The notes under the pieces: model-generated
Told to the model about the DNA's origin: nothing
The model's database searches: none
What the model saw: only the letters and a program-made list of their open reading frames with translations
NCBI GenBank assembly: GCA_012295275.1
Contig: CM022670.1
Location: 8,184,001 to 8,248,000, forward strand
Direction: 5' to 3'
DNA from: Chrysomallon squamiferum
Taxonomy: Eukaryota > Animalia > Mollusca
Length of the DNA stretch: 64,000 bases
Program-made: the position numbers and the translations under genes
Shown here: positions 1,191 to 63,296 of the stretch, one piece after another
Layout: the number at the start of each line of letters is the position of its first letter
How positions within the stretch are numbered: position 1 is the stretch's first letter

Positions 1191-15770
<14,580 letters not shown>

Positions 15771-30070: not shown

Positions 30071-32451
30071 TCGATCTCATGACTCTCTGATTACACAATT
30101 ATCATAATTAATTAGATTATTGACCCTATAACACAAGCAGATTAAAGTGATATTTATTATTAAGTACCTAAAGACTGTTTTTGACGATAATAATTCAAAG
30201 TTAGTCTTGTTATTTGGCAAAAATAGAATATTTGGTGATGGCATCTTTGAACTATAATATTATTACCATTTAACAGCAAGGCATCTTTTTTTTTTTTTTT
30301 AAATTACTTTCTCAAGGATTGAATAACACATACCATGACACCTACGCTCAACCATAAATTATAATTTCAGCCGGTATTTATATATTGCTTCATGTACACA
30401 GCATACCGTTTAAGGTATGCATCCGTCTTCCATCGTCTAGTTCTAAAATACGATCATTGCTCAGTTATATTAGAAAATATAAAAGGAAAGTTTACATTCA
30501 GTTGATTTATTTCGACATTAAAACTTGCGGAAGCAAGAGGAACGAATCGAAACGAAACATCTCTCGTTTAAACGGTAATAAATCACGTAGAAGAATTTCA
30601 ACCATTTCCTTGCATGCCGATGTTCACCGAGTGATGTCGTCACGTCTGTTTCGTGCTGTTTTAATTACTGGCGTTGTGGTCGTAACTGTTTGGTGACTGA
30701 GTGGTCACCAAGTGCACAGTAACTGTCCGGTTTCATGTTCTAGGTGTTAGTGGACGCAGAGAAGGTCCGGTCAAAGCGATCTGGTTTTGTAGTGGTTTGT
30801 ATTTCTGAATAAAAGACGTAGAATGATAATTACACACATACCAGAAATCAAACACTAACATAAATAAAATTAAATGCAATTAAATCAAACAAAGCATATA
30901 AAGAAAAATAAAAGAAAATAAAATATAGATTCTGTAATAAAGAATAAATTCCAAAAAAAAAAAAAAAAAAAAAAAAATAGGAAGATTAGATTAAGTATGA
31001 AAAATCAAAATTGAAATGCATACAAATGATTCTATTTAAGATTTAGAAATACCAGTTAAATACTCCTACTTCTAATAAAAATATAAAATACAAATAAAAT
31101 GCAAAATGTAAATAAAAATGAAATAAAAAAAAAAAAACCACCAAAATATAAAATATAAATAACGTAAATAAAATTTTAAATACAGTAAAATAAAAAAATA
31201 ACAATAAAAATATAAATAAAGATATATAAAAATAAAATAATATAAATAATATTATAACAAAAATATAAATAAATGAAACTAAAACAAAAGAAAAGTTTAC
31301 AAGTATTTTAACGCCGAATATAAAAGTCACCTGGATGAAATCAACACGGAGGTAAAAACCCACGTGACCTCTCAAGTGTGTGCTTTGATATTAACATATC
31401 GATGTTTATCCCCATTGTTTACTAAATATTGTTTTGTCCGTTCTGTCGTCAAGAACTCGCAATGGTCAAAGCGGATATAAAATGAAGGAAGTATTAAGTA
31501 ATGTAAATGTTTGGTGGACGCACGGTCAGTTCAAAGTTTTCCAGTACAAAAAATATTTTGTTTGTAAAGAAGGAAGGAGTTATGATGGCATAAAAATGCA
31601 CGATATCAATATTTATGGCTTGACACTTTGCACGGTTTTATTTAGACGCACGATTACGAAGGCAGGGTTCAAATAAATAATTCTGTACAAGAATGATGAA
31701 GTTTGTTTTTGTCTAGGAAAAATGAAGTGGCTTTGGATTTGATCATGTAGTCGAATGAAACGATTTAATAGTATGATTAATGATATAGAATGATGATGAA
31801 CTGTTATATGTTAATTATGATATAAAGTGAACTCATTTCGGCTACACATGTTAAATACATTTGACTCTGCCTCTCCGTTTCCCTCTTTGTATGTTATTAA
31901 CTGTATATGAATATGTATGTTTTGTTTGCGTGAGAATGTTTAATAATTACAATACTTTAAGATTTTCAACGGTTTTGTAATTCTTCATGTTATCTCTATA
32001 AGATGTAAATTTTGTTGGTTTATTTATTTATTTATTTATTTAAACAGTAACATTTTATACTTCATACTTTACGTGCTTTTTCAAGATTGAAATGATTCAA
32101 AATGTCTATCTCAGGAATCTACACAATGGTCAAAGCCATCTGAAGGAATGATTACAAACGTTTTACTAATTTCATAATTTGTCAAGGCAGACTACCTTAA
32201 GATTTTATCACGTTAGGACAACAAAATTTATGATAGAAGAAATTATTTCAAACACAGTATGGAATTAAAACGATTCATTCTCTATATAACGATCTCGTTT
32301 CTTTATATATTTTTTTAACCAGGTAAAGAGATTTTGAAGAAATCCATATTTATACGACACATCAAAGAGACCATTTTTTGAAGACATGCTCTGCATCGTT
32401 TAACAACAAAGACAAACACAATATAAAAACTGCAGTCATTTTGGTGTAAAC

Positions 32452-35142
32452 ATGGATGTCATGACTTGCTCCCTTCTTCTGTTTGCTGTTTTGATCTTTC
32501 CTGCCTCCGCTGTCAAGACGCAACGTTCCGAGTTCCTGAAGAACAGAAGAACGTGTTGGTGGGATCGATCCCCGATGGGATCCACTTAACGTCCATCTTG
32601 GCGCTCGAAACTATGAACACGTTGACGTACAGTTTCCTCACTCACGGATATCCAGACAGTCGCTTCTTTAGCCTCAACAATTCCACTGGCGAGCTGCGAA
32701 CCGCTGTACCTGTGGACAGAGAGAAGGTGTGCGGGTTTCAGATCGAGTGCGTCTTAGTAATACAGGTGGCGATTCAGTCTTCCAGTGACCAGTACTTTAA
32801 GAAAATTAAACTGCACGTCGTTGTTGAGGACGTCAACGACAACTCGCCAGAATTTCCAGCATCACCCGTGACTCTGCAGATATCTGAAGACGTCTCGCAG
32901 AATACGTCGTACGCCATCGATGGCGCCATTGACAGAGATATTGGAAAGAACGGCTTGCAGGACTACGAGCTTGCGACGGACGGCGGACCGTTTGTTTTGA
33001 ACATCAGCAAACGCCTGGACGGTGGTCAGATGGTCAGTCTGATTGTGGGAAACAGTTTGGACAGAGAAAAGAGAAGTTATTACACGCTCAGAATTAAGGC
33101 CAGAGACGGAGGGCAGCCTCAGCGGACAGGGGAATTAACTCTGGATGTCGTCGTGGTAGACGTCAATGACAACAGCCCGCAATTCACACCGTCGTCTTAC
33201 AACGTCAGCGTCAACGAAACGATTCCGCTTTATTCCATCATTTTGACGGTTTCTGCGACGGACGCCGACGACGAAGAAAACGGCGTCGATTTTTACAGAT
33301 TCAGTTCCATGAAGGTGGGCGACTTCGAGAAGTATGTTTCCATAAACAACAGGACCGGGGAAATTTTTGTCATTTCTGACCTGGAGCCAGTTCAGGGTGA
33401 GAGGTTTACGTTTGTCGTGGAGTGCGTGGACAAAGGCTCTCCTCCTCTTGTTTCGCAAGCTCTGGTCGAGTTGCAGGTGGACGATTCCGTAAACAGTCCT
33501 CCACGAATCAACTTCAACCTCTTGTCCTCGGGCCAGGTGTCCGAGTACGCTCTTCCTGGCACAGTGGTCGCCCACGTTGCCGTGCACGACCCAGACTACG
33601 GCGAGAACGGGATGATAAAATGTTTTATGATCAGCAACACGTTCGAGCTGGACGCTCTGGGTGTGAACGAGTACAAGGTAAACCTGATGAGGACAGTGGA
33701 CAGGGAGATAGAGAGTGAGGTCAACGTGTCCATCACCTGTGAGGACAGTGGAGACCCTCCTCTGAAAACCTCCACTGACTTCTCCATCAAAATACGTGAT
33801 GAAAATGACCACACGCCTTATTTTCTTCAAGATATCTACACAGCTTATCTAGATGAAAATGTAAAAGATGTCGTTGTTACGCAGGTGACGGCACAGGACG
33901 ATGACGTAGGTGAGAATGGAGAAATTGAATATTTTATCCCCTTTGACTGGCAGATTGGACTGACTGCTCTGCCAAATGGGGAGATTGTCTGTAACAAAGC
34001 ATTCGATCGAGAGGCGACGCCAAAAATCGCGTTGACCGTGGTTGCCAGAGATAAAGGGACGCCGTCGCGAAACCACAGCACTACGGTGATAATAACAATC
34101 AACGACGTCAACGATGTCACCCCAGCGTTCTACAAACAGGAGTTTTCGTTCAGTATACCCGAGAATCAGCCGGTGGGGACGACGTTTGGCAGTGTGGTCG
34201 CTTTTGACTTGGATCTGAGAGACGGCGGAGAGTTGAAGTACTTTCTGGAAGAAGATGAGGACTTCGATATAGACGTGACATACGATGGACTGCTAAAAAC
34301 ACGAGTTTCGTTAGACAGAGAGGTTAAAGACAGCTATCGCTTCAGGGTTTGGGTTGCTGACGGTGGGAAACCCACTCTCAGCAGCTCTGCTATCGTCCGT
34401 TAACGTCACGGACAGGAACGACAACTACCCCGTCATCAGATTTCCCGATCTTGTAAATTCGTCATTGATAATTCCCCACGACACGCCTGCCGGCACTGTT
34501 GTCATGGAGGTGGAAGTACAAGATGATGATGCTGACGGAAACGGATTGTGTCAGTTCTATATGCTGCCACACGACGACAACGATGACTACAACGTCGCTG
34601 ACGAAAACGACAACCAGGCCGCTGTCCTCAAAGTTCTGTCCATGTTTGACATCCACAGAGACAGCGGTGAAATGACACTGAAACAGTCTTTGAAGAAAGA
34701 AGACGTTGGTCATTACACCGTTACAGTTCTAGTCCGAGACCAAGGGATGCCTCCGCTGATGTCGAACCTTACCCTCGACATCCACGTCGTCCTGTCTAAC
34801 CACACGTCCGGAGTGATGAACAAAGAAAACGCCGTCGTCGTGGCCGTTGTTGGCAGCCTCACGGGAGTGGTATCTGTGATCGTTGTTATTACTATTGTCC
34901 TGATGAGAAGGCGAGACAGACTGAAACAGAAGTACTCTGCGCCGAGCATCGTGTCACATCCGGCTCCGAGCGACCTGAAGCCCGTGGGAAGTCTAGAAAC
35001 TCACGAAGAAGAAAACAGACGAAACACGAAGAGTGGCGAAGATTCGGACTCGAGGAACAGATCGTATGACGCACTTAGAGAACTCACGGAATCACACGAC
35101 AAGCACAATGACGATGCTTCGTTTAAAGATGGCATCGATCTG
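32452..35142 (+). CDS. Pcdh: Pcdh-A giant ectodomain/TM exon (acceptor probably 32323), two frameshifts
   Basis: ORFs 32466-34403 and 34354-35157 are consecutive cadherin-repeat segments. The signal peptide at 32452 is out of frame with the first of them. Confidence 0.92.
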
Positions 35143-35176
35143 GTACGTAGTTCTTGATTATATTTTGAATAATAAC

Positions 35177-38537: not shown

Positions 38538-39451
38538 ATTAATGAAAGATTAAGAAAAAAATAATGCTGACAGAATTTGTTAAGATATTTACTAAGTAGT
38601 TTTGTATTCATTATTATTATGTATACATTACTTACACGTTACATTCGTAAAAATAATAAGAAACACAACAAAAATGAAAGAAAAAAGAATAATAACAAAA
38701 TAACAAAACAACAACAACAACAACATCAAAAAACAACAAACAAGCAAACAAACAAACAAACATGATATAAACCGAATTTTTGATTTTTAAAAATCTTATT
38801 TCTTAGGACGAGGATCGGAACGAGTCGTCTATCCTATCGGAAGTAGAACGCCATTGGCTGGCGGATGCTAAGACCGTTCCTGATTGGTCAACAGCTTTAA
38901 AACTTCATCAAGATCTACTGAAGTTGCATGGTGTGCAAACCAAGGTAAAAATATGTAAACTGATCTTTTCAGCCGATGTCCAGATTTAAGGGTATAAATA
39001 AGAGAAAAAAAATAAAAAGATATAAAAAAAAGGAAATAAAGAAAGAATAATCCTAATAAAACCTCAGAATACCTTACGTACAAATCTATTGCTATATTAA
39101 ATATTCTCTTTTATTCTGTTATAAAAAAGTGTGACTTCATAAGATGTTTGTTTGTTAACTGAGTGACATTAATAATAATACACATATATATATCCCTTAA
39201 GCGCAAATATACATATATTACTTCTTTCACTTTTATTTATTTGAAACTGTAACAAACCATATTATCTGTATAAAATAAAAGTTCTTGAGAAAACCACATA
39301 AATTAATTAAATGTCTTTCACAAGTGAGTTTACTGACAAAATCTAAGTTTAATTCCATGGAAATGAACGAGAAAAGTATTTTAATATATTAAATCTGTGA
39401 TATTAAAAACAAAAATAATAATTGTGTGTGTGTGTACTGTTACATTTTTTT

Positions 39452-39484
<33 letters not shown>

Positions 39485-39723
39485 ATTATTATTATTACAA
39501 AAATTTATTGAGATTTTGATGAATATTAAATAAGCTGTGTTGTATTTTAGATTCTGCCACAAACTCATTTTGAAGATGGACACAGCGACAGCTCGGAGGA
39601 AGTTGCTACTAGCGACAGCGGTCGAGGCGGAAGCGGAAGTGACGAAGATAGTCATGGGAGAGCATCACCTGACAGTAAGCATGGTAGGTTTATTTATTTT
39701 TTTATGAATAATAATAATAACAA

Positions 39724-39773
<50 letters not shown>

Positions 39774-40945
39774 ATAATAATAATAATAATAACAATAATA
39801 AAGAAGAAGAAGAAAGAAATAAGTAAAAATAAAATTAAATAAAATGATTTTTAGAAATAAAACTGTTTGAACGGAACAACATATTCAACAATTTCTTATT
39901 TATTATTAATTCATTAAAAATATTATGGACATATCATATAACACATACTAGATAACTTTTTATAAAATTTTATAAAATTTCTTCAGAAGACGAATCGAAT
40001 ACTTCTCCAGCGACTTACAACATCATTCAGACTCTGAGAAATAAGTCAGCTAACTACGACAACATGGGGTACGACAGCATGCACGCGACACCGATCAACA
40101 CACGTCGTAAAGCGGAAATTTGGACCATCGACAGTCACGGCAGCGCACATTCGACACCATCCAACAGTTGCCGGAAAGTAGACGTCTGGGAGTTCAACAA
40201 CGACGGCAGCGGCCCACCTACGCCGGCTAACAGTCGTCGAAAAGCCGATGTTTGGGACGTTGAGAGTCACGGCAGTGCTGCGTCAACGCCGCGTAGCTGT
40301 CGTCGTAAAGCGGATACGTGGACGTTCGAAATACGCGGAAGCATTCCTTCCACACCGATTAACGGTTGTCGTAAATCTGACCTTTGGGAGGTGGGCGGTC
40401 AAGCCAGCCCCGCGTCCATACCAAGGAACGGACAACGGAAAACTGATGCGTGGACATTCGAAAGCTATTGCGGTAACCTTTCCAGCCCAGTTAACGGTTG
40501 TCGCAGTTCTGATTCGTGGAAAATGGTGGACAAAACCGGCAGCAGTCCTTCCACCCCGGTTAACGGTTGTCGTAAATCCGATTCGTGGAAAATATGTAAT
40601 ACTGGTAGCAATCCTTCCACCCCGGTTAACGGTTGTCGTAAATCCGATTCGTGGAAAATAAGTAATGCTGGTAGTAATCCTTCCACTCCTGTTAACGGTT
40701 GTCGTAAAAAATGGACGATCAACAACAGCGACGGTTTCAAGAAGAGACTTTCAAACCCGGGTCAGAAACGGGTAACTTTTCAGCCCGAACTTCATCATAC
40801 AGTGTTTAACGCGTATCACGCGAGTTCTGACGTCACTCAAAGCATAGACGATGACGACACAACTACGTCAGGAAGTTATTCGGTTGATGTCGATCATGAC
40901 AGTATTGACACTATGTTGCCAAGGATTCAGGATATGGTTGTCTAA
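32452..40945 (+). CDS. Pcdh: Protocadherin A (delta-like, 7 EC + TM + long cytoplasmic tail, ~1260 aa once two indels are corrected); exons 32452-35142, 39551-39683, 39987-40945
   Basis: Signal peptide MDVMTCSLLLFAVLIFPASA from ATG 32452. EC1 has C-x5-C (REKVCGFQIEC); PE/DRE/DxNDN motifs define 7 repeats; TM AVVVAVVGSLTGVVSVIVVITIVLM followed by RRR. Phase-0 donor ctg|gtacgt. Exon 2 encodes DSGRGGS; exon 3 encodes KRVTF and DDDDTTTSGSY, ending at TAA 40945. Frameshifts at ~32512 and ~34398. Confidence 0.9.
39551..39683 (+). CDS. Pcdh: Pcdh-A cytoplasmic exon with CM1-like DSGRG motif
   Basis: Boundaries ttttag|ATT and catg|gtaggt; encodes ILPQTHFEDGHSDSSEEVATSDSGRGGSGSDEDSHGRASPDSKH; phase 0 in, phase 1 out, matching both neighbours. 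Confidence 0.85.
39987..40945 (+). CDS. Pcdh: Pcdh-A terminal exon: 22-aa repeats, KRVTF, TTTSGSY, C-terminal DMVV
   Basis: Acceptor cttcag|aa is in phase 1 and runs open into ORF 40064-40945. Confidence 0.85.
40070..40730 (+). repeat. Coding tandem repeat, 66-bp/22-aa unit, ~10 copies
   Basis: ttccac(c/t)cc-gttaacggttgtcgtaaa recurs at 40549, 40615 and 40681 (period 66); protein consensus GSxxSTPxNGCRKxDxW. Confidence 0.92.
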
Positions 40946-42890
40946 GATACCAAAAGTTATACAAAATTATATTTTTTTCTTGTGTAATAGTTACTGGGTA
41001 GCTCCTTTTGATAATGGAAAAAAGTAGTTTTTATATTATTTGATATAAAATATATATAAAAAAGAAGAGAGAGAAAATAATAGAGAATTCATGGGCAGTT
41101 CCTTTAACACAGGTCCTATCTTTTTAAAAATGTTTTTGTTAAATGTACTGATGTATATAGTATAAATATAAAACAAAACAAAAATAATATATATATATGC
41201 AAATAAGTACGTAAAATACTCATAGGGTAATACTTTTACATTCAAACATATCCGAAACTAATAAAATACACATCAAATATGTCTATTTGAAAATATTTTA
41301 TACTTCAATAATTTTCTTTTTTAAAACAGTGAAAAAAAATAAAAAAAATAAAGAAAATAAATAAAAAAGAAAAAGAGAAAATGTAATAAAAAAAAAAAAA
41401 ATAAAAATAAAGAAAGAAAATAAGAATGAAAGAACTGAAAAAAAAAAATGAAAATCTAGCCAAAATCAGTAACTTAAAATATAATGTAGCGAAAATATAT
41501 CAAATTTTGAGTAGATTTTTTATTATTTGTAATTTACTCACTGTCCATTGATGTAAATATTTATTTAGCATGTGTAAATAATTGTGAAATATTCTGACCT
41601 GTTACTTCTGTATTAATTAAAATTGAAATAAAAATATAACAGTATTATAGAAATTTGTTATGTGTAAGGAAACACACACAAACACACACACACACATACA
41701 CACTCACACACACACACACTCACACACACACAAATAAATAAAAAATAAAAACCTGTAGCGATGACGTTAAACGAAAATTTATTGATGCAAATGTTTACTA
41801 ATATAATTTTAAAATTCATTAATTAAACAAATAATTAACTTATAAATTAAATAATTCGTTAATAAATTAATCAAATATTTCATTCAGAAATAAATTATTC
41901 ATGAATGTATCAAATATTTAAGAAATGAAATATTTTATTAAAGTTCATTATGAATTGAAATAATATATCGAAAATATATATATATATTCAGCAGGCGACG
42001 GAATTCATCTTTAATAATATACCAAAATAATACTGTAATACACATACAGTGAATTATGGTATTCTTATTTATTATTAACGAGACGATGTCCCGCTGCCTA
42101 CTAACACCTAATAAAATCCACCAATCACAGGTAATAATGTAAAATGTGACAGTACAGTTTAGGAAATGACTTGTCACACATTTCACCTGTGTCAATTAAT
42201 ACTGTTCGGTTTCCATGACAACAGTCATAACGCATCTGAATCTAGCACGTGCAGATAGATGGGTAATGACGTTTTGTCGGAAGGTGACGAGGTTCATATT
42301 GTAATATAACTGACAGCGCTAACGAAGATGGGGTTGGTGGGGGTTGGTGGGTGAATAGGTGGTGTAAGGATTTGAATTATTTTATTAATGAGAATGTCTA
42401 ATGAGGTTAATCTGTTTATCATTCTGTTGGAGGATAAAATTAATTACTAGCTGGAAATGGTCCATTTAGTACAACAACAACATTATTAGTAAAACAAAAA
42501 AAAAAAATATATATATATATAATAATAATAATAATAATGATAACAGTAACAACAACGATAACATTATTAATTTACTGTTAGAAGTATTAGTTTTAGTGTC
42601 AGAAGTAGATGTAGTAATAACAATTACTACAGTGACAGTGGTAGTTGTATTTTTAAAAAGTTGCTGTAGCAACGGTAGCAACAGTTATCACTACTTCACG
42701 GTAGTTGTAGCAGGTGCAAGCAATAGTAAAATAATAATTATAATAATAATAATAATAATAATAACAATAATAACAACAACAGCAACAATAACAACAACAA
42801 CAACAACAACTACAATAATAATAATAATAATAATAACAGTAACCGTGACACAGCAAGAACAACAAGAACAACAACAACAACAACAACAAC

Positions 42891-59803: not shown

Positions 59804-60503
59804 TGTCACATATCTGTGTATGATTATATACGTACCGAATACAGTGTTGAATAAAGCTTTTAACATTGCCAGAATAAATGAAAAAATAAATGAGTGAATT
59901 TATAGGTTTTGTATCCTTTCCGGTCTTTCAGTTTTATTATTCTGTTTTTAATATCTTTTAATTTCTTAATCTTGGAGAATCTGAGTTTTGATACAGAATA
60001 TTAAAAACAACAACAACAGCAGCAGCAACAACAACAACAAAAAAACATTCAGTTTTATAAACAAATCCATAATCTGTGGAGACAAATGCACAAACACATA
60101 CATCATACTCTTTGCAGCTTCCCCTCTCTTTCTCAGATACACAGACACACATTCTGAAAGAGGTAAATAAAGGAAAAACGAGAAATATCCAGACATTTCT
60201 ACTAGGTAGCTGAAATTATTCCAAAAAAGTCAGATTAGTTATTGTTAGTGTTAATCTGTTTTATTTTATTATTAATATTTACTTCTTCTTCTTTCTCTCT
60301 CGCAGATTATAGTCCCGTTGTCATCTTTCAAGATTTACTATCGAAGGCTTGGATACATTTCCATAATTCTGAAAACAATAGCAATATAACATTTGTGAAT
60401 AGCATTCAAAGAAACAAGATTTACCTCGGTCAAGCAGAATATATTTTAAATCATTGTTATTAAAACAAAGTTGTACTAATATAACAGTACTGAAAACAGC
60501 AAG

Positions 60504-63170
60504 ATGAGTTTATTACAGAAAGCACTGTACATGGTGTTAATGTTTAGCAGTGTCATTTTGCATAATACCCTTGTGCAGACTCGTACGTTGACAATGTCTG
60601 TGAAGGAAGAAATGCCACAGAACACGACTGTTGGAATGGTGACGTATCTCCCTGGCAACCAGACCATAGACAATACGACAGTTCTCAATTACAGCTTCCT
60701 ACCTCAAGGCTACCCTCATACAAATCGTTTTACCATCGATGCCAACACTGGGAAGATCATGACAGCAGAAGTACTTGACAGAGAAGAACTTTGTGGATTT
60801 TTCCCTGAATGTAAACTAAAGTTAGAGGTAGCCATTCAATCCACGCATCACCAGATATTCCAGAAAGTTAAGGTCGTTGTCGATGTTGTGGACATCAACG
60901 ATAACGCTCCAGAGTTTCCGTCAAAGTCAGTTGTGTTGAAAATATCTGAGTCTGTGTCTGTTAACAGCACGTTCGCTATAGAAGGAGCCGTGGACAAAGA
61001 CGTGGGCAGAAATGCTTTACAAACGTACGACATCATCAGAGGCGAGGGGAAGTTTGACATCAACATTCAAAAAGAATCTCGACGGCGGCAGCGTGGTTAA
61101 TTTAATGGTAATCGAGCCTCTGGACCGAGAGATCAGAGACTTCTACAGAGTGTACGTGATGGCCAAAGATGGTGGGATTCCTAGAAAATCCAATCTGCTC
61201 ATGCTTAACATCACAGTTCTCGACGTCAACGACAACGCGCCTGATTTCACGTCATTGGTTTACAAAGCCAGGGTGAAGGAGGTGATGCCGCCAGGAAGTG
61301 TTATTCTTCAGGTGGCGGCGACAGACAAGGACAGCAAGAAGTTCTGGAAGCCTGTTTACAGGTTCAGCGCTCTGCAGGCTGGAGAATTTAGAGATTACTT
61401 TGCCATCAACGGCTCAACGGGCGAGATAAAAGTGATTTCACCGCTCACACAGATACAAGGAAAGACTATGAAGTTTATTGTGGAATGTGTGGACGGTGGT
61501 GTCCCATCCTTTGTCTCTCAGACCGAAGTTCACATTCAGGTCTTGGATACCATTAACAGTCCGCCTACCATTAACCTCAACGTTCTCTCTGAAGGTAGAA
61601 TTTCAGAGTCGGCCGACGTCGGTACGGTGGTTGCCCACGTCTCGGCGGTGGATCCTGATTCGGGGCGAAATGGACTGGTGAAGTGTTTTGTAAACAGTGA
61701 CATGTTTGAGGTTCACGCACTTGATGTTAATGACTACAAGATTACCACGACTAGAAGTCTGAACAGAGAGGAACGAGCCTGGTACAACATCACAGTTATG
61801 TGTGAGGATGCTGGGAAACCTACGCTAACAACCAAAAATATTTTACTGTTCAGGTTGAGGACGAAAATGATAACACTCCTCAGTTCTCGCAATACACGTA
61901 CGAACTTAATTTAGAAGAAAACAATCCAGTAAACCAGCTTTTGTTAAAAGTAACAGCTACAGACATAGATGCCGGTATTAATGGGAATATTAACTATCAC
62001 ATCCCTGATGGTGAAAAGTATGGCGTGTCTGTCTCAAGCTCTGGTGAAATATTTGCCGAGAAGTCGTTTGACAGAGAAGAGAGTTCACAAATTAGGTTTG
62101 TAGTCGTAGCTTCTGACGGAGGGAAACGGCCAAACAGTGCAAGTGTTACGGTGATAATAAACCTAGAGGACGTGAACGACTTCGTGCCCACATTTTCTCA
62201 GCAAAGATTTATTTTTTCTTTAGAAGAAGATCGTCCAGCCGGTGCTAGTCTTGGAAAGATTTTCCCTCTGGATTTGGACGATGGTGTTAACGGCGAATTA
62301 GTTCTGAACATAGAACTGCCTTTCTACGAGTTTGACAATTTTCCGTTTGTAATCACGTCTGAGGGTGACTTGTTGACTAACAGCCTCCTGGACAGAGAGG
62401 CGAGGAGTCAGTACGTGTTTTCTGTGATAGCTACAGACAGAGGAGACCCTCCTCTCTCCAGCAGCACAGAAATTGTTGTGAATATCATAGACATTAACGA
62501 CAACACACCAGTGATAGTTTCACCCAACAGCGAAAACTCGTCAGTCGTTATCCCCGACCACACAGAGCCAGGAACAGCGATATATTCTGTCATTGCAGTG
62601 GACAACGATACAGAATCTAACGGACATTTGCAGTACTACCTCACCCCGGAATCTGACCACGAACTCTTCCATCTGGACAAGGAATCAGGCGTCGTGTATT
62701 TAAAACGTCATTTAGAACCGGCTGATGGCGGAGTGTATCCTCTGTCCATCATGGTCAAAGACCAGGGAGTTCCGTTCAGGTTTGCCAATGCTTCTCTAGA
62801 GATCACCATTGTAGCTGATAACGAGACTTTTCTTTCAGTTCGTCAGAAAGAAAACACGACCATTGCCATAGTGATGGGCTGCATCACTGGCCTGATAGCA
62901 ATTTGTGTTGTAATAACGATCATCTTCATGAGGAACTCTGACAGAGCGTGGAGACTGAAGAGAAACTCCGGTAATTCTCAGGACAACAGCAACAGCGTTG
63001 ACGGCGATAATAAACTCGACAGCGTCGTTGTTCAAGACGCACAGGCAGCCAAGAGCAACGTCAGCAACGATGCCAAGAAGGACCTCAGTCAGTTGTCTCA
63101 AGGGTGGCACTTTCTACCGGGCGTGGCGGTTGATCTGTCCACTGCAGCGACTCGAACAGCCCAGACGAGT
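60504..63170 (+). CDS. Pcdh: Protocadherin B giant exon (7 EC + TM, ~889 aa; acceptor 60306); 3' cytoplasmic exons probably outside window; two frameshifts
   Basis: Signal peptide MSLLQKALYMVLMFSSVILHNTLVQT; REELCGFFPEC; seven EC repeats across ORFs 60504-61100, 61012-61914 and 61941-63200; TM IAIVMGCITGLIAICVVITIIFM. Phase-0 donor agt|gtatgt at 63170. Frameshifts in A-runs at ~61070 and ~61836. Confidence 0.92.
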
Positions 63171-63296
63171 GTATGTAATGTTAATAATTTCAGTTATTAA
63201 ACTAGTATCAATTAACTTTTATTTTAGAATACGTCTTTAATTAATGTCATTAAAAAGTACTCTGTTTTTTTTTTCTTGTCTCCTTTATTTATCTAT

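What the first reader, a model, noticed from the sequence alone, without database searches (positions are those of the whole stretch)
39987..40945. Protocadherin tail carrying a ~10x22-aa S/T-P...RK.D.W array next to a PP1-docking KRVTF motif
Seen: ten consecutive ~22-aa units, e.g. GSAHSTPSNSCRKVDVWEFNND and GSNPSTPVNGCRKSDSWKISNA. Each has a conserved Pro (nearly always S/T-P), a basic patch, often a Cys, and an invariant Trp. The last three units are nearly identical in DNA and the first are diverged, indicating polarised, recent expansion. The array lies between DSGRGGS and KRVTF, then DDDDTTTSGSY and C-terminal DMVV. Established: RVxF docks PP1, and RRVTF is the CM3 motif of delta1-protocadherins; S/T-P is the target of CDK/Cdk5/MAPK. 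Inference: an adhesion receptor with a copy-number-tunable multisite phosphorylation or multivalent docking array beside its own phosphatase anchor. I know of no protocadherin with such a repeat.
Basis: partly seen in the sequence, partly recalled or inferred. Interest (0 to 1): 0.8.

Follow-up and report, generated by a model that had tools for sequence, protein, structure and literature searches.

The report
Snail protocadherin with phospho-repeat tail
A snail cell-adhesion gene carries, in what is likely its intracellular tail, ten conserved 22-amino-acid repeats (13 in a related vent snail, none in other snail relatives examined) beside a predicted phosphatase-docking motif, and these likely act as a copy-number-variable phosphorylation and binding array.

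Summary
40073-40729 encodes ten 22-residue units (core S-x-P-S-T-P...R-K-x-D-x-W) in the last exon of a seven-cadherin-repeat protocadherin. The orthologue in the vent snail Gigantopelta aegis (XP_041357714.1) has the same repeat, 13 units, in one gene model with the ectodomain. The repeat is under purifying selection (pN 0.35 vs pS 0.64 among units; neutral simulations at matched pS 0/400). It matches no Pfam family above cut-off and does not fold confidently. Thirteen other gastropod protocadherin proteins (five genera) share the flanking motifs, including the RVxF-like site, but lack the array, so it is an insertion into an old tail. Likeliest mechanism (inferred, untested): a disordered multisite pT-P/Trp docking array reset by PP1 bound 18 residues downstream, working like the KNL1 MELT array. 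No RNA, phosphorylation or binding evidence was obtained. New variant of a known kind.

The parts
32452..35142 (+). Exon 1 (coding): signal peptide, seven cadherin repeats, transmembrane helix (about 34831-34905), juxtamembrane tail. Two frameshifts in the window sequence, near 32499 and near 34390, probably assembly errors.
   Evidence: Pfam Cadherin 6 + 1 stretches; 80% identical to P0001 over 631 aa; run X1 contig has one extra C after 32499 and a contig of 1405 letters spans 1403 window bases across the second break; donor GTACGT after 35142
38807..38944 (+).
   Evidence: tblastn of P0001; AG/GT ends; 42/46 identical to P0001
39551..39683 (+). Exon 3 with the CM1-like DSGRGGS motif (39614-39634)
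   Evidence: 36/42 identical to P0001
39987..40945 (+). Exon 4, coding part to the stop codon; holds the array and the C-terminal motifs
   Evidence: aligned over its whole length to P0001 975-1370, 46% identity
40055..40066 (+). Y-x-N-M motif just before the array (SH2-ligand-like; label recalled)
   Evidence: also in P0001, P0002, P0013, P0035, absent in 10 of 14 proteins checked
40073..40729 (+). Array of ten 22-residue units; units 7-10 are the young end, unit 10 truncated by two residues
40766..40780 (+). KRVTF, RVxF-type predicted PP1 docking motif, 18 residues after the last Trp
   Evidence: positional equivalents KRVTF, KHVTF, KRVKF, KKVSF, KHVSF in 14 of 14 gastropod proteins checked
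40847..40879 (+). Acidic D-D-D-D-T-T-T-S-G-S-Y motif
   Evidence: TTSGSY in 12 of 14 proteins, degenerate in the two Patella proteins
40931..40942 (+). C-terminal DMVV, hydrophobic end resembling a class II PDZ ligand (label recalled)
   Evidence: relatives end in DMLV, DILV, DVLV, DVYV, QAVV

Best explanation
The region encodes ten conserved 22-residue repeats at the likely intracellular end of a snail protocadherin, and they are predicted to form a disordered array whose T-P sites would be phosphorylated by a proline-directed kinase, whose Trp motifs would dock a partner, and which PP1 bound at the neighbouring KRVTF would likely reset. Shown: the repeat, its conservation in a second species, purifying selection on T-P, R-K and W, independent 3' duplications giving 10 and 13 units, and its position as a 200-270-residue insertion between DSGRGGS and the RVxF-like motif of an older gastropod tail. 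Inferred from the orthologue's gene model and splice signals: four-exon splicing to the cadherin exon. Inferred from motifs only: a MAPK-type kinase primes Thr6 (P-x-T-P), GSK3 could then take Ser2 (S-x-x-x-pT), and R-K-x-D-x-W-x-hydrophobic is the docking half of each unit, either for the kinase (it lies 11-13 residues after the site, where ERK F-sites lie) or for a reader protein. Unit number would then set valency or switching threshold, as MELT number does in KNL1. The copy carrying the array appears to be a lineage-restricted duplicate with a faster-evolving ectodomain.
For: Orthologue with array and ectodomain in one RefSeq model. Over 23 units of both species: Pro7 23/23, Arg12 22/23, Trp17 22/23, Thr6 21/23, Ser2 21/23. 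pN 0.348 vs pS 0.640 over 36 non-independent pairs; in neutral simulations scaled to that pS 0/400 reached the observed ratio, 3 invariant columns or 7 near-invariant columns. Differences of run X1 within the array: 13 synonymous, 10 non-synonymous, binomial p 4e-4, none at Pro7, Arg12, Lys13 or Trp17. P-x-S/T-P 5/10 and 13/13; S/T-x-x-x-S/T-P 8/10 and 12/13. Disorder-like composition, FoldIndex -0.105 (window) and -0.003 (Gigantopelta) vs +0.087 for the ectodomain. DSGRGGS-to-RVxF spacing 77-87 residues in 13 of 13 array-less proteins vs 283 and 347. Papers (passages read): RRVTF of delta1-protocadherins binds PP1alpha (PMC6339937; 10.1101/2021.09.21.460794); PP1 favours pT-P over pS-P and basic context, and many RVxF regulators are themselves PP1 substrates (PMC11536154); ERK2 consensus P-x-S/T-P with a downstream F-site (PMC4459106); KNL1 pairs SILK/RVSF with a fast-evolving phospho-repeat array (PMC4558858).
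Against: No transcript, phosphosite or binding data. The window copy has two frameshifts in exon 1, only the first of which is directly shown as an indel in X1. ERK2 F-sites need aromatics at both positions: W-x-F occurs in 3/10 window units and 0/13 Gigantopelta units. P-x-S/T-P is met by only half of the window units, and unit 6 has lost the Thr (I-P); X1 restores it but also changes several other residues. The same PP1 paper reports overall deselection of +1 Pro and says pT-P enrichment partly reflects the data set. The RVxF-like motif is older than the array, so adjacency need not be functional. Selection in the array is weaker than in the ectodomain (pN/pS 0.22 vs 0.09 on the rows shown; difference not significant, p 0.15). 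The 22-residue period is kept almost without indels, which a purely disordered motif string does not require. Only two species with the array were seen.
Confidence: 0.5

Rival explanations
1. The array is a phosphorylation-independent multivalent ligand: each R-K-x-D-x-W-x-hydrophobic segment binds a partner (coat or sorting adaptor, cytoskeletal or scaffold protein) by beta-strand addition, and S-x-P-S-T-P is mostly a stiff spacer that fixes the 22-residue pitch.
For: Trp17, Arg12 and hydrophobic position 19 are as conserved as T-P; strict period; both low-confidence models put one short strand per unit at the Trp segment.
Against: Thr6 (21/23) and Ser2 (21/23) are specifically kept, which a spacer does not need. 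Patterns for RVxF, KLC W-acidic and Xin-like W-x-F-E-T have 0 matches and LIR 1 per array (patterns recalled).
Confidence: 0.22
2. The array folds, alone or on a partner or as an oligomer, into a solenoid or cross-beta stack with one strand per unit and a Trp ladder, clustering receptor tails.
For: Near-invariant 22-residue period in 23 units; AlphaFold2 stacks the units in a solenoid-like way, pLDDT rising to about 50 in the last Gigantopelta units; weakest Foldseek rows include LRR domains (E 3.9-9.9).
Against: Large hydrophobics only 17-22% vs 34% in the ectodomain; Pro/Ser/Thr/Gly/Asn 44-48%; unit lacks the L-x-x-L-x-L-x-x-N pattern (sequence; pattern recalled); 0 PDB sequence matches at E<=10. 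The low pLDDT (35 and 37) comes from two-sequence alignments and is weak evidence either way.
Confidence: 0.12
3. A tolerated coding minisatellite: slippage lengthens a disordered linker and the apparent conservation reflects homogenisation, with no function per unit.
For: Species-specific young clades of units; array absent in the sister paralogue and all other gastropods checked; flanking 28 residues before the array are only 13/28 identical between species.
Against: Synonymous sites are near saturation while key residues are fixed; neutral simulations fail; X1 differences are skewed to synonymous.
Confidence: 0.08
4. The window copy is a pseudogene (or the array exon is not used), the frameshifts in exon 1 being real.
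For: Two frameshifts in exon 1; no RNA run holds the exon among those offered (not evidence on expression).
Against: A closely related DNA run shows the extra base at the first break and a net +2 across the second; 27 synonymous vs 8 non-synonymous differences in exon 1 among the rows shown; the neighbouring protocadherin has similar breaks, as expected of an indel-prone assembly; intact orthologues P0001 and P0010.
Confidence: 0.08

Closest known systems
Gigantopelta aegis protocadherin-7-like XP_041357714.1 (P0001)
   Same: Orthologue: 80% identical ectodomain, same tail motifs, same 22-residue repeat in the same place
   Different: 13 units instead of 10; its young units (8/9/11 and 10/12) arose separately; annotated automatically, repeat not described
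Gastropod seven-repeat protocadherins without the array (Gigantopelta XP_041360250.1, Haliotis XP_046555887.1, Patella, Pomacea XP_025115144.1, Aplysia)
   Same: ALKLH-type motif, DSGRGGS, K-[RHK]-V-[TSK]-F, TTSGSY, hydrophobic C-terminus, in the same order
   Different: No array; 77-87 residues between DSGRGGS and the RVxF-like motif
Vertebrate delta1-protocadherins (PCDH1, 7, 9, 11)
   Same: Seven EC repeats, single TM, D-S-G-x-G core, RVxF motif (RRVTF binds PP1alpha)
   Different: CM2-like C...GHSD-x-CW pattern absent; KRVTF not RRVTF and placed after the DSG motif (vertebrate order CM3 first is recalled, not checked); no such repeat known; orthology not tested
KNL1/Spc105 MELT array with SILK/RVSF (functional analogy)
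   Same: Disordered array of short phospho-motifs next to a PP1 docking site; species-specific block duplication and turnover under purifying selection (PMC4558858 passages)
   Different: No sequence relation, no MELT; membrane receptor, not kinetochore scaffold; reader unknown; PP1 site lies C-terminal to the array
Ki-67 repeats with RVxF; LRP5/6 PPPSP repeats; neurofilament KSP repeats (analogies)
   Same: Many proline-directed sites in repeats; Ki-67 binds PP1 and is its substrate at 72 sites (PMC11536154 passage); LRP6 and NF-H recalled from memory
   Different: Different unit sequence and length; none is a cadherin; no homology found

Membership tests
Protocadherin (cadherin superfamily) | Tandem EC repeats, single transmembrane helix, tail without classical cadherin C-terminal domain | tested here: met
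   Pfam Cadherin 6 + 1 stretches, weak Protocadherin hit 0.0016 below cut-off, no Cadherin_C
delta1-protocadherin | Seven EC repeats | tested here: met
   7 Cadherin stretches in P0001; 6 + 1 in the window; definition from PMC6769022 passage
delta1-protocadherin | CM1 | tested here: inconclusive
   Only the D-S-G-x-G core is shared with the zebrafish tail seen in the supplement of PMC6339937; assignment of that stretch to CM1 is recalled
delta1-protocadherin | CM2 | tested here: not met
   0 matches of GHSD-x-CW or CWMP in the window tail and in 6 of 6 gastropod proteins; pattern as seen, label recalled
delta1-protocadherin | CM3 (RRVTF) | tested here: inconclusive
   KRVTF present, exact RRVTF absent; may be homologous or convergent
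delta1-protocadherin | Phylogenetic grouping with vertebrate PCDH1/7/9/11 | not tested
   Tree held gastropod sequences only
Gastropod seven-repeat protocadherin group (P0002, P0003, P0013, P0015, P0005) | Tail motif order ALKLH - DSGRGGS - RVxF-like - TTSGSY - hydrophobic end, and nesting in the ectodomain tree | tested here: met
   array genes sister to P0002 at 100/99
PP1-interacting protein | RVxF motif in a disordered, conserved context | tested here: met
   KRVTF, conserved position in 14 of 14 proteins
PP1-interacting protein | Direct binding to PP1 | not testable with these tools
CDK/Cdk5 full consensus sites | S/T-P-x-K/R (or basic at +4) | tested here: not met
   0 of 10 and 0 of 13 units
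KNL1 MELT array | MELT-like motif and KNL1 C-terminal RWD domain | tested here: not met
   No MELT in the units; no such Pfam hit; analogy only
Described repeat domains (LRR, Xin, choline-binding, other Pfam/PDB repeats) | Profile or structure match above threshold | tested here: not met
   Best Pfam hit DUF5447 20.9 bits vs cut-off 27; 0 PDB sequence hits; no Foldseek E<=0.001 on a low-confidence model

The most novel reading that the evidence does not exclude
A duplicated protocadherin of vent snails gained a new 22-residue signalling module, each unit pairing a MAPK/GSK3 phospho-cassette with its own Trp docking site, and tunes signal strength by unit number against a self-bound PP1: a KNL1-like kinase/phosphatase rheostat built de novo on a cell-adhesion receptor.
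Probability: 0.3. Interest if true: 0.7.

Novelty: new variant of a known kind. Interest (0 to 1): 0.46.

Why it matters
It would be a dated case of a new multivalent signalling array arising inside an adhesion receptor tail after gene duplication, with an array-less sister paralogue in the same genome as a natural control. It also shows that gastropod protocadherins carry a CM1-like and an RVxF motif, whereas vertebrate CM motifs were reported absent from Octopus vulgaris protocadherins (PMC6339937), which bears on how old PP1 docking on protocadherins is. The reach is limited: two species, no functional data, animals that are hard to work with; peptide and heterologous-cell tests are feasible.

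Tried and rejected
No genome is held for the window, so paralogues and synteny outside the window could not be searched. RNA: no RNA holder listed; three RNA runs laid on 38700-41000 gave only short low-complexity pieces and no joints; this says nothing on expression. Metagenome scans found nothing (181 and 103 pattern matches, 0 confirmed). The 1.84-billion representative search gave 4 hits at E<=0.001, 23-42% identity, all unrelated repeats, and did not return P0001, so it has blind spots; a unit HMM matched only the window and P0001 (by construction) among 47 proteins and six frames, next best E 0.19. P0004 (bacterial MucBP protein with P-S-T-P-V-D-N repeats, E 1.4e-12) is a compositional look-alike without R-K or W. 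ESM Atlas: best score 0.78 and no usable hit. AlphaFold2 mean pLDDT 34.7 and 36.9 from two-sequence alignments; Foldseek blank. PF28399, precomputed on P0001, also sits on FAT, cadherin-23 and the exon-1-only P0010, so it is not the array. Earlier scan findings: none in three look-ups. A recalled claim that p38 accepts aliphatic residues in F-sites could not be found in the library (0 papers) and is not used. A recalled CDK1/PCDH7 link was not found. Copy number in run X1 could not be read: contigs break inside the young units. No complex prediction was sent. My first guess of a cephalopod was dropped.

Full report
1. Observation. The ORF 39956-40942 (+) contains ten Trp residues spaced 22, 22, 22, 22, 22, 22, 23, 22 and 20 apart. 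Cut into units (starts 40073 to 40670), Pro7, Arg12 and Trp are present in 10 of 10, S/T before Pro7 in 9 of 10, Cys11 in 6 of 10. Mean identity among units 1-9 is 0.446; 10,000 shuffles give 0.072, maximum 0.109. Units 8 and 9 share 62 of 66 bases and the first 39 bases of unit 10 match them at 34 and 36; other pairs share 28-46 of 66.

2. The gene. Upstream lie cadherin ORFs at 32427-34400 and 34315-35154. A search with exon 4 among longer proteins gave 1 hit among 3870 candidates: P0001, protocadherin-7-like of the vent snail Gigantopelta aegis, XP_041357714.1, E 1e-128. All three introns are GT-AG and the joined tail is in frame. A third orthologue, unnamed P0010 (75% identical), is an exon-1-only prediction ending at the same donor position; its tail is unknown. 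The window is therefore probably from a close relative of Gigantopelta (inference). Exon 1 has two frameshifts against P0001. Run X1 (DNA contigs of a closely related animal) has an extra C after 32499 and a 1405-letter contig over 1403 window bases across the second break, whose place was among the rows not shown. With 27 synonymous to 8 non-synonymous differences in exon 1 (35 coding rows of the 40 shown, 112 more not shown) and similar breaks in the neighbouring protocadherin, assembly indels are the likelier cause. Splicing and expression are not shown: the link rests on the RefSeq model and splice signals.

3. The array in relatives. P0001 has 13 units with an exact 22-residue period. Over all 23 units: Pro7 23, Arg12 22, Trp17 22, Thr6 21, Ser2 21, Lys13 20. 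Thirteen other gastropod proteins (1 Gigantopelta paralogue, 4 Haliotis, 2 Patella, 5 Pomacea isoform models, 1 Aplysia; in effect five genes) all have DSGRGGS and an RVxF-like motif 77-87 residues apart, against 283 in the window and 347 in P0001, and none has a P-x-S/T-P site in the tail. An oyster protocadherin also shows DSGRGGS (supplement of PMC6339937, part 7 of 11 read). So the array is an insertion into an older tail and KRVTF predates it. In an ectodomain tree of 11 gastropod rows the window gene, P0001 and P0010 form a clade (100/100) sister to the array-less Gigantopelta paralogue P0002 (100/99), with a stem of 0.68 against 0.32 for P0002 (midpoint root, Pomacea and Aplysia on long branches, no clade test run). 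This suggests a lineage-restricted duplication followed by faster change and gain of the array; hidden paralogues in Haliotis are not excluded, since the protein searches scored only the top 8000 candidates.

4. History of the units. A tree of the 23 units (22 columns, low power) groups window units 7-10 (96), Gigantopelta 8/9/11 (95) and 10/12 (85), while window unit 1 joins Gigantopelta units 1 and 3 (91). The 5' units are older than the species split and the 3' part was duplicated separately in each lineage.

5. Selection. Among units 1-9 (unit 10 left out as truncated) pS is 0.640 and pN 0.348. Neutral simulation on the unit tree, at five scalings of 400 runs each, never reached the observed pN/pS or the 7 near-invariant columns, and reached 3 invariant columns in 1 of 400 at the lowest scaling only. 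Of 23 X1 differences inside the array (from the 40 rows shown of 44), 13 are synonymous where 22.6% of sites are (p 4e-4), and none changes Pro7, Arg12, Lys13 or Trp17; differences in the youngest units may include mis-laid copies.

6. No described domain. Pfam: nothing above cut-off. PDB sequences: 0 at E<=10. Large searches gave only unrelated repeats. Two AlphaFold2 models have mean pLDDT 34.7 and 36.9 with one short strand per unit, from two-sequence alignments, so they decide little. Composition is on or below the order/disorder boundary.

7. Mechanism. Motif counts (patterns recalled unless cited): CDK-type S/T-P-x-K/R 0 of 23; P-x-S/T-P 5 of 10 and 13 of 13, the ERK2 consensus according to PMC4459106 (passages); GSK3-type S/T-x-x-x-S/T-P 8 and 12; basic pair followed three residues later by Trp 8 and 11. 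W-x-hydrophobic lies 11-13 residues after Thr6, where F-sites lie, but ERK2 needs two aromatics and W-x-F occurs in only 3 of 10 and 0 of 13 units. KRVTF starts 18 residues after the last Trp. RRVTF of delta1-protocadherins binds PP1alpha (passages of PMC6339937, PMC7339444, PMC4081120 and 10.1101/2021.09.21.460794). PMC11536154 (passages) reports that PP1 prefers pT-P to pS-P and basic context and that RVxF regulators such as Ki-67 are often substrates, but also an overall deselection of +1 Pro. The array uses T-P, not S-P, in 21 of 23 units. I therefore commit, at 0.5, to a disordered phospho-regulated docking array reset by PP1, working like KNL1's MELT array, whose pattern of species-specific block duplication under purifying selection (PMC4558858, abstract and passages) matches what is seen here. 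Kinase, reader and PP1 binding are all inferred. The strict period keeps a Trp-centred, phospho-independent ligand (0.22) and a folded stack (0.12) alive.

8. Membership and novelty. It is a protocadherin of a gastropod seven-repeat group; it works like a delta1-protocadherin in having seven repeats and an RVxF, but CM2 is absent and orthology was not tested, so it is not filed as delta1. On print: a search for protocadherin + tandem repeats + intracellular domain + gastropod returned 0 papers; none of the 15 listed of 47 papers had both protocadherin and Gigantopelta; RRVTF + protocadherin gave 2 papers; two searches were listings of general protocadherin papers. Albertin 2015, Vanhalst 2005, Wang and Ragsdale 2017 and Sheridan 2008 were not read, and their supplements, which list cephalopod tail motifs, could bear on novelty. 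The orthologue has been in RefSeq under an automatic name. Verdict: real, constrained, apparently undescribed repeat in a known receptor type; new variant of a known kind; interest 0.46.

Noticed in passing
window 7063-7209 and 15384-15767 (+): Exons with a PPP5-region hit (PF08321, E 1.1e-5) and EF-hand pairs; likely one PPEF/rdgC-type Ser/Thr phosphatase gene upstream of the protocadherin (name recalled). Probably coincidental neighbour.
   Followed up: partly
window 60480-63197 (+): Second, head-to-tail protocadherin, 40-50% identical to P0001 in the ectodomain, broken by two frameshifts near 61070-61097 and 61830; its tail exons are not in the window or it ends at 63200. Suggests a tandem protocadherin cluster.
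   Followed up: partly
window 38807-38944; P0015 vs P0039: The ALKLH exon is phase 0-0 and Pomacea models exist with and without the equivalent segment: possible conserved cassette exon with a helical motif of unknown function.
   Followed up: partly
window 40055-40066: Y-x-N-M motif (fits recalled Grb2 and PI3K p85 SH2 patterns) just before the array; also in P0001, P0002 and both Patella proteins.
   Followed up: no
window 40161 and 40435-40708, run X1: X1 has an in-frame 3-base insertion in unit 2, and two contigs over the young units each have 12 letters that do not fit: possible allele or copy-number difference, unresolved.
   Followed up: partly
window 38785-38804, run X1: One X1 contig shows a 14-base deletion and a T>A change at position -3 of the exon 2 acceptor; near the contig end, may be an alignment artefact.
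   Followed up: no
ectodomain tree: The array-bearing clade has a stem twice as long as its array-less sister paralogue (0.68 vs 0.32), a hint of changed adhesion specificity after duplication.
   Followed up: no
window 1360-2067: 20-base minisatellite, about 37 copies, open in several frames; looks non-coding.
   Followed up: no
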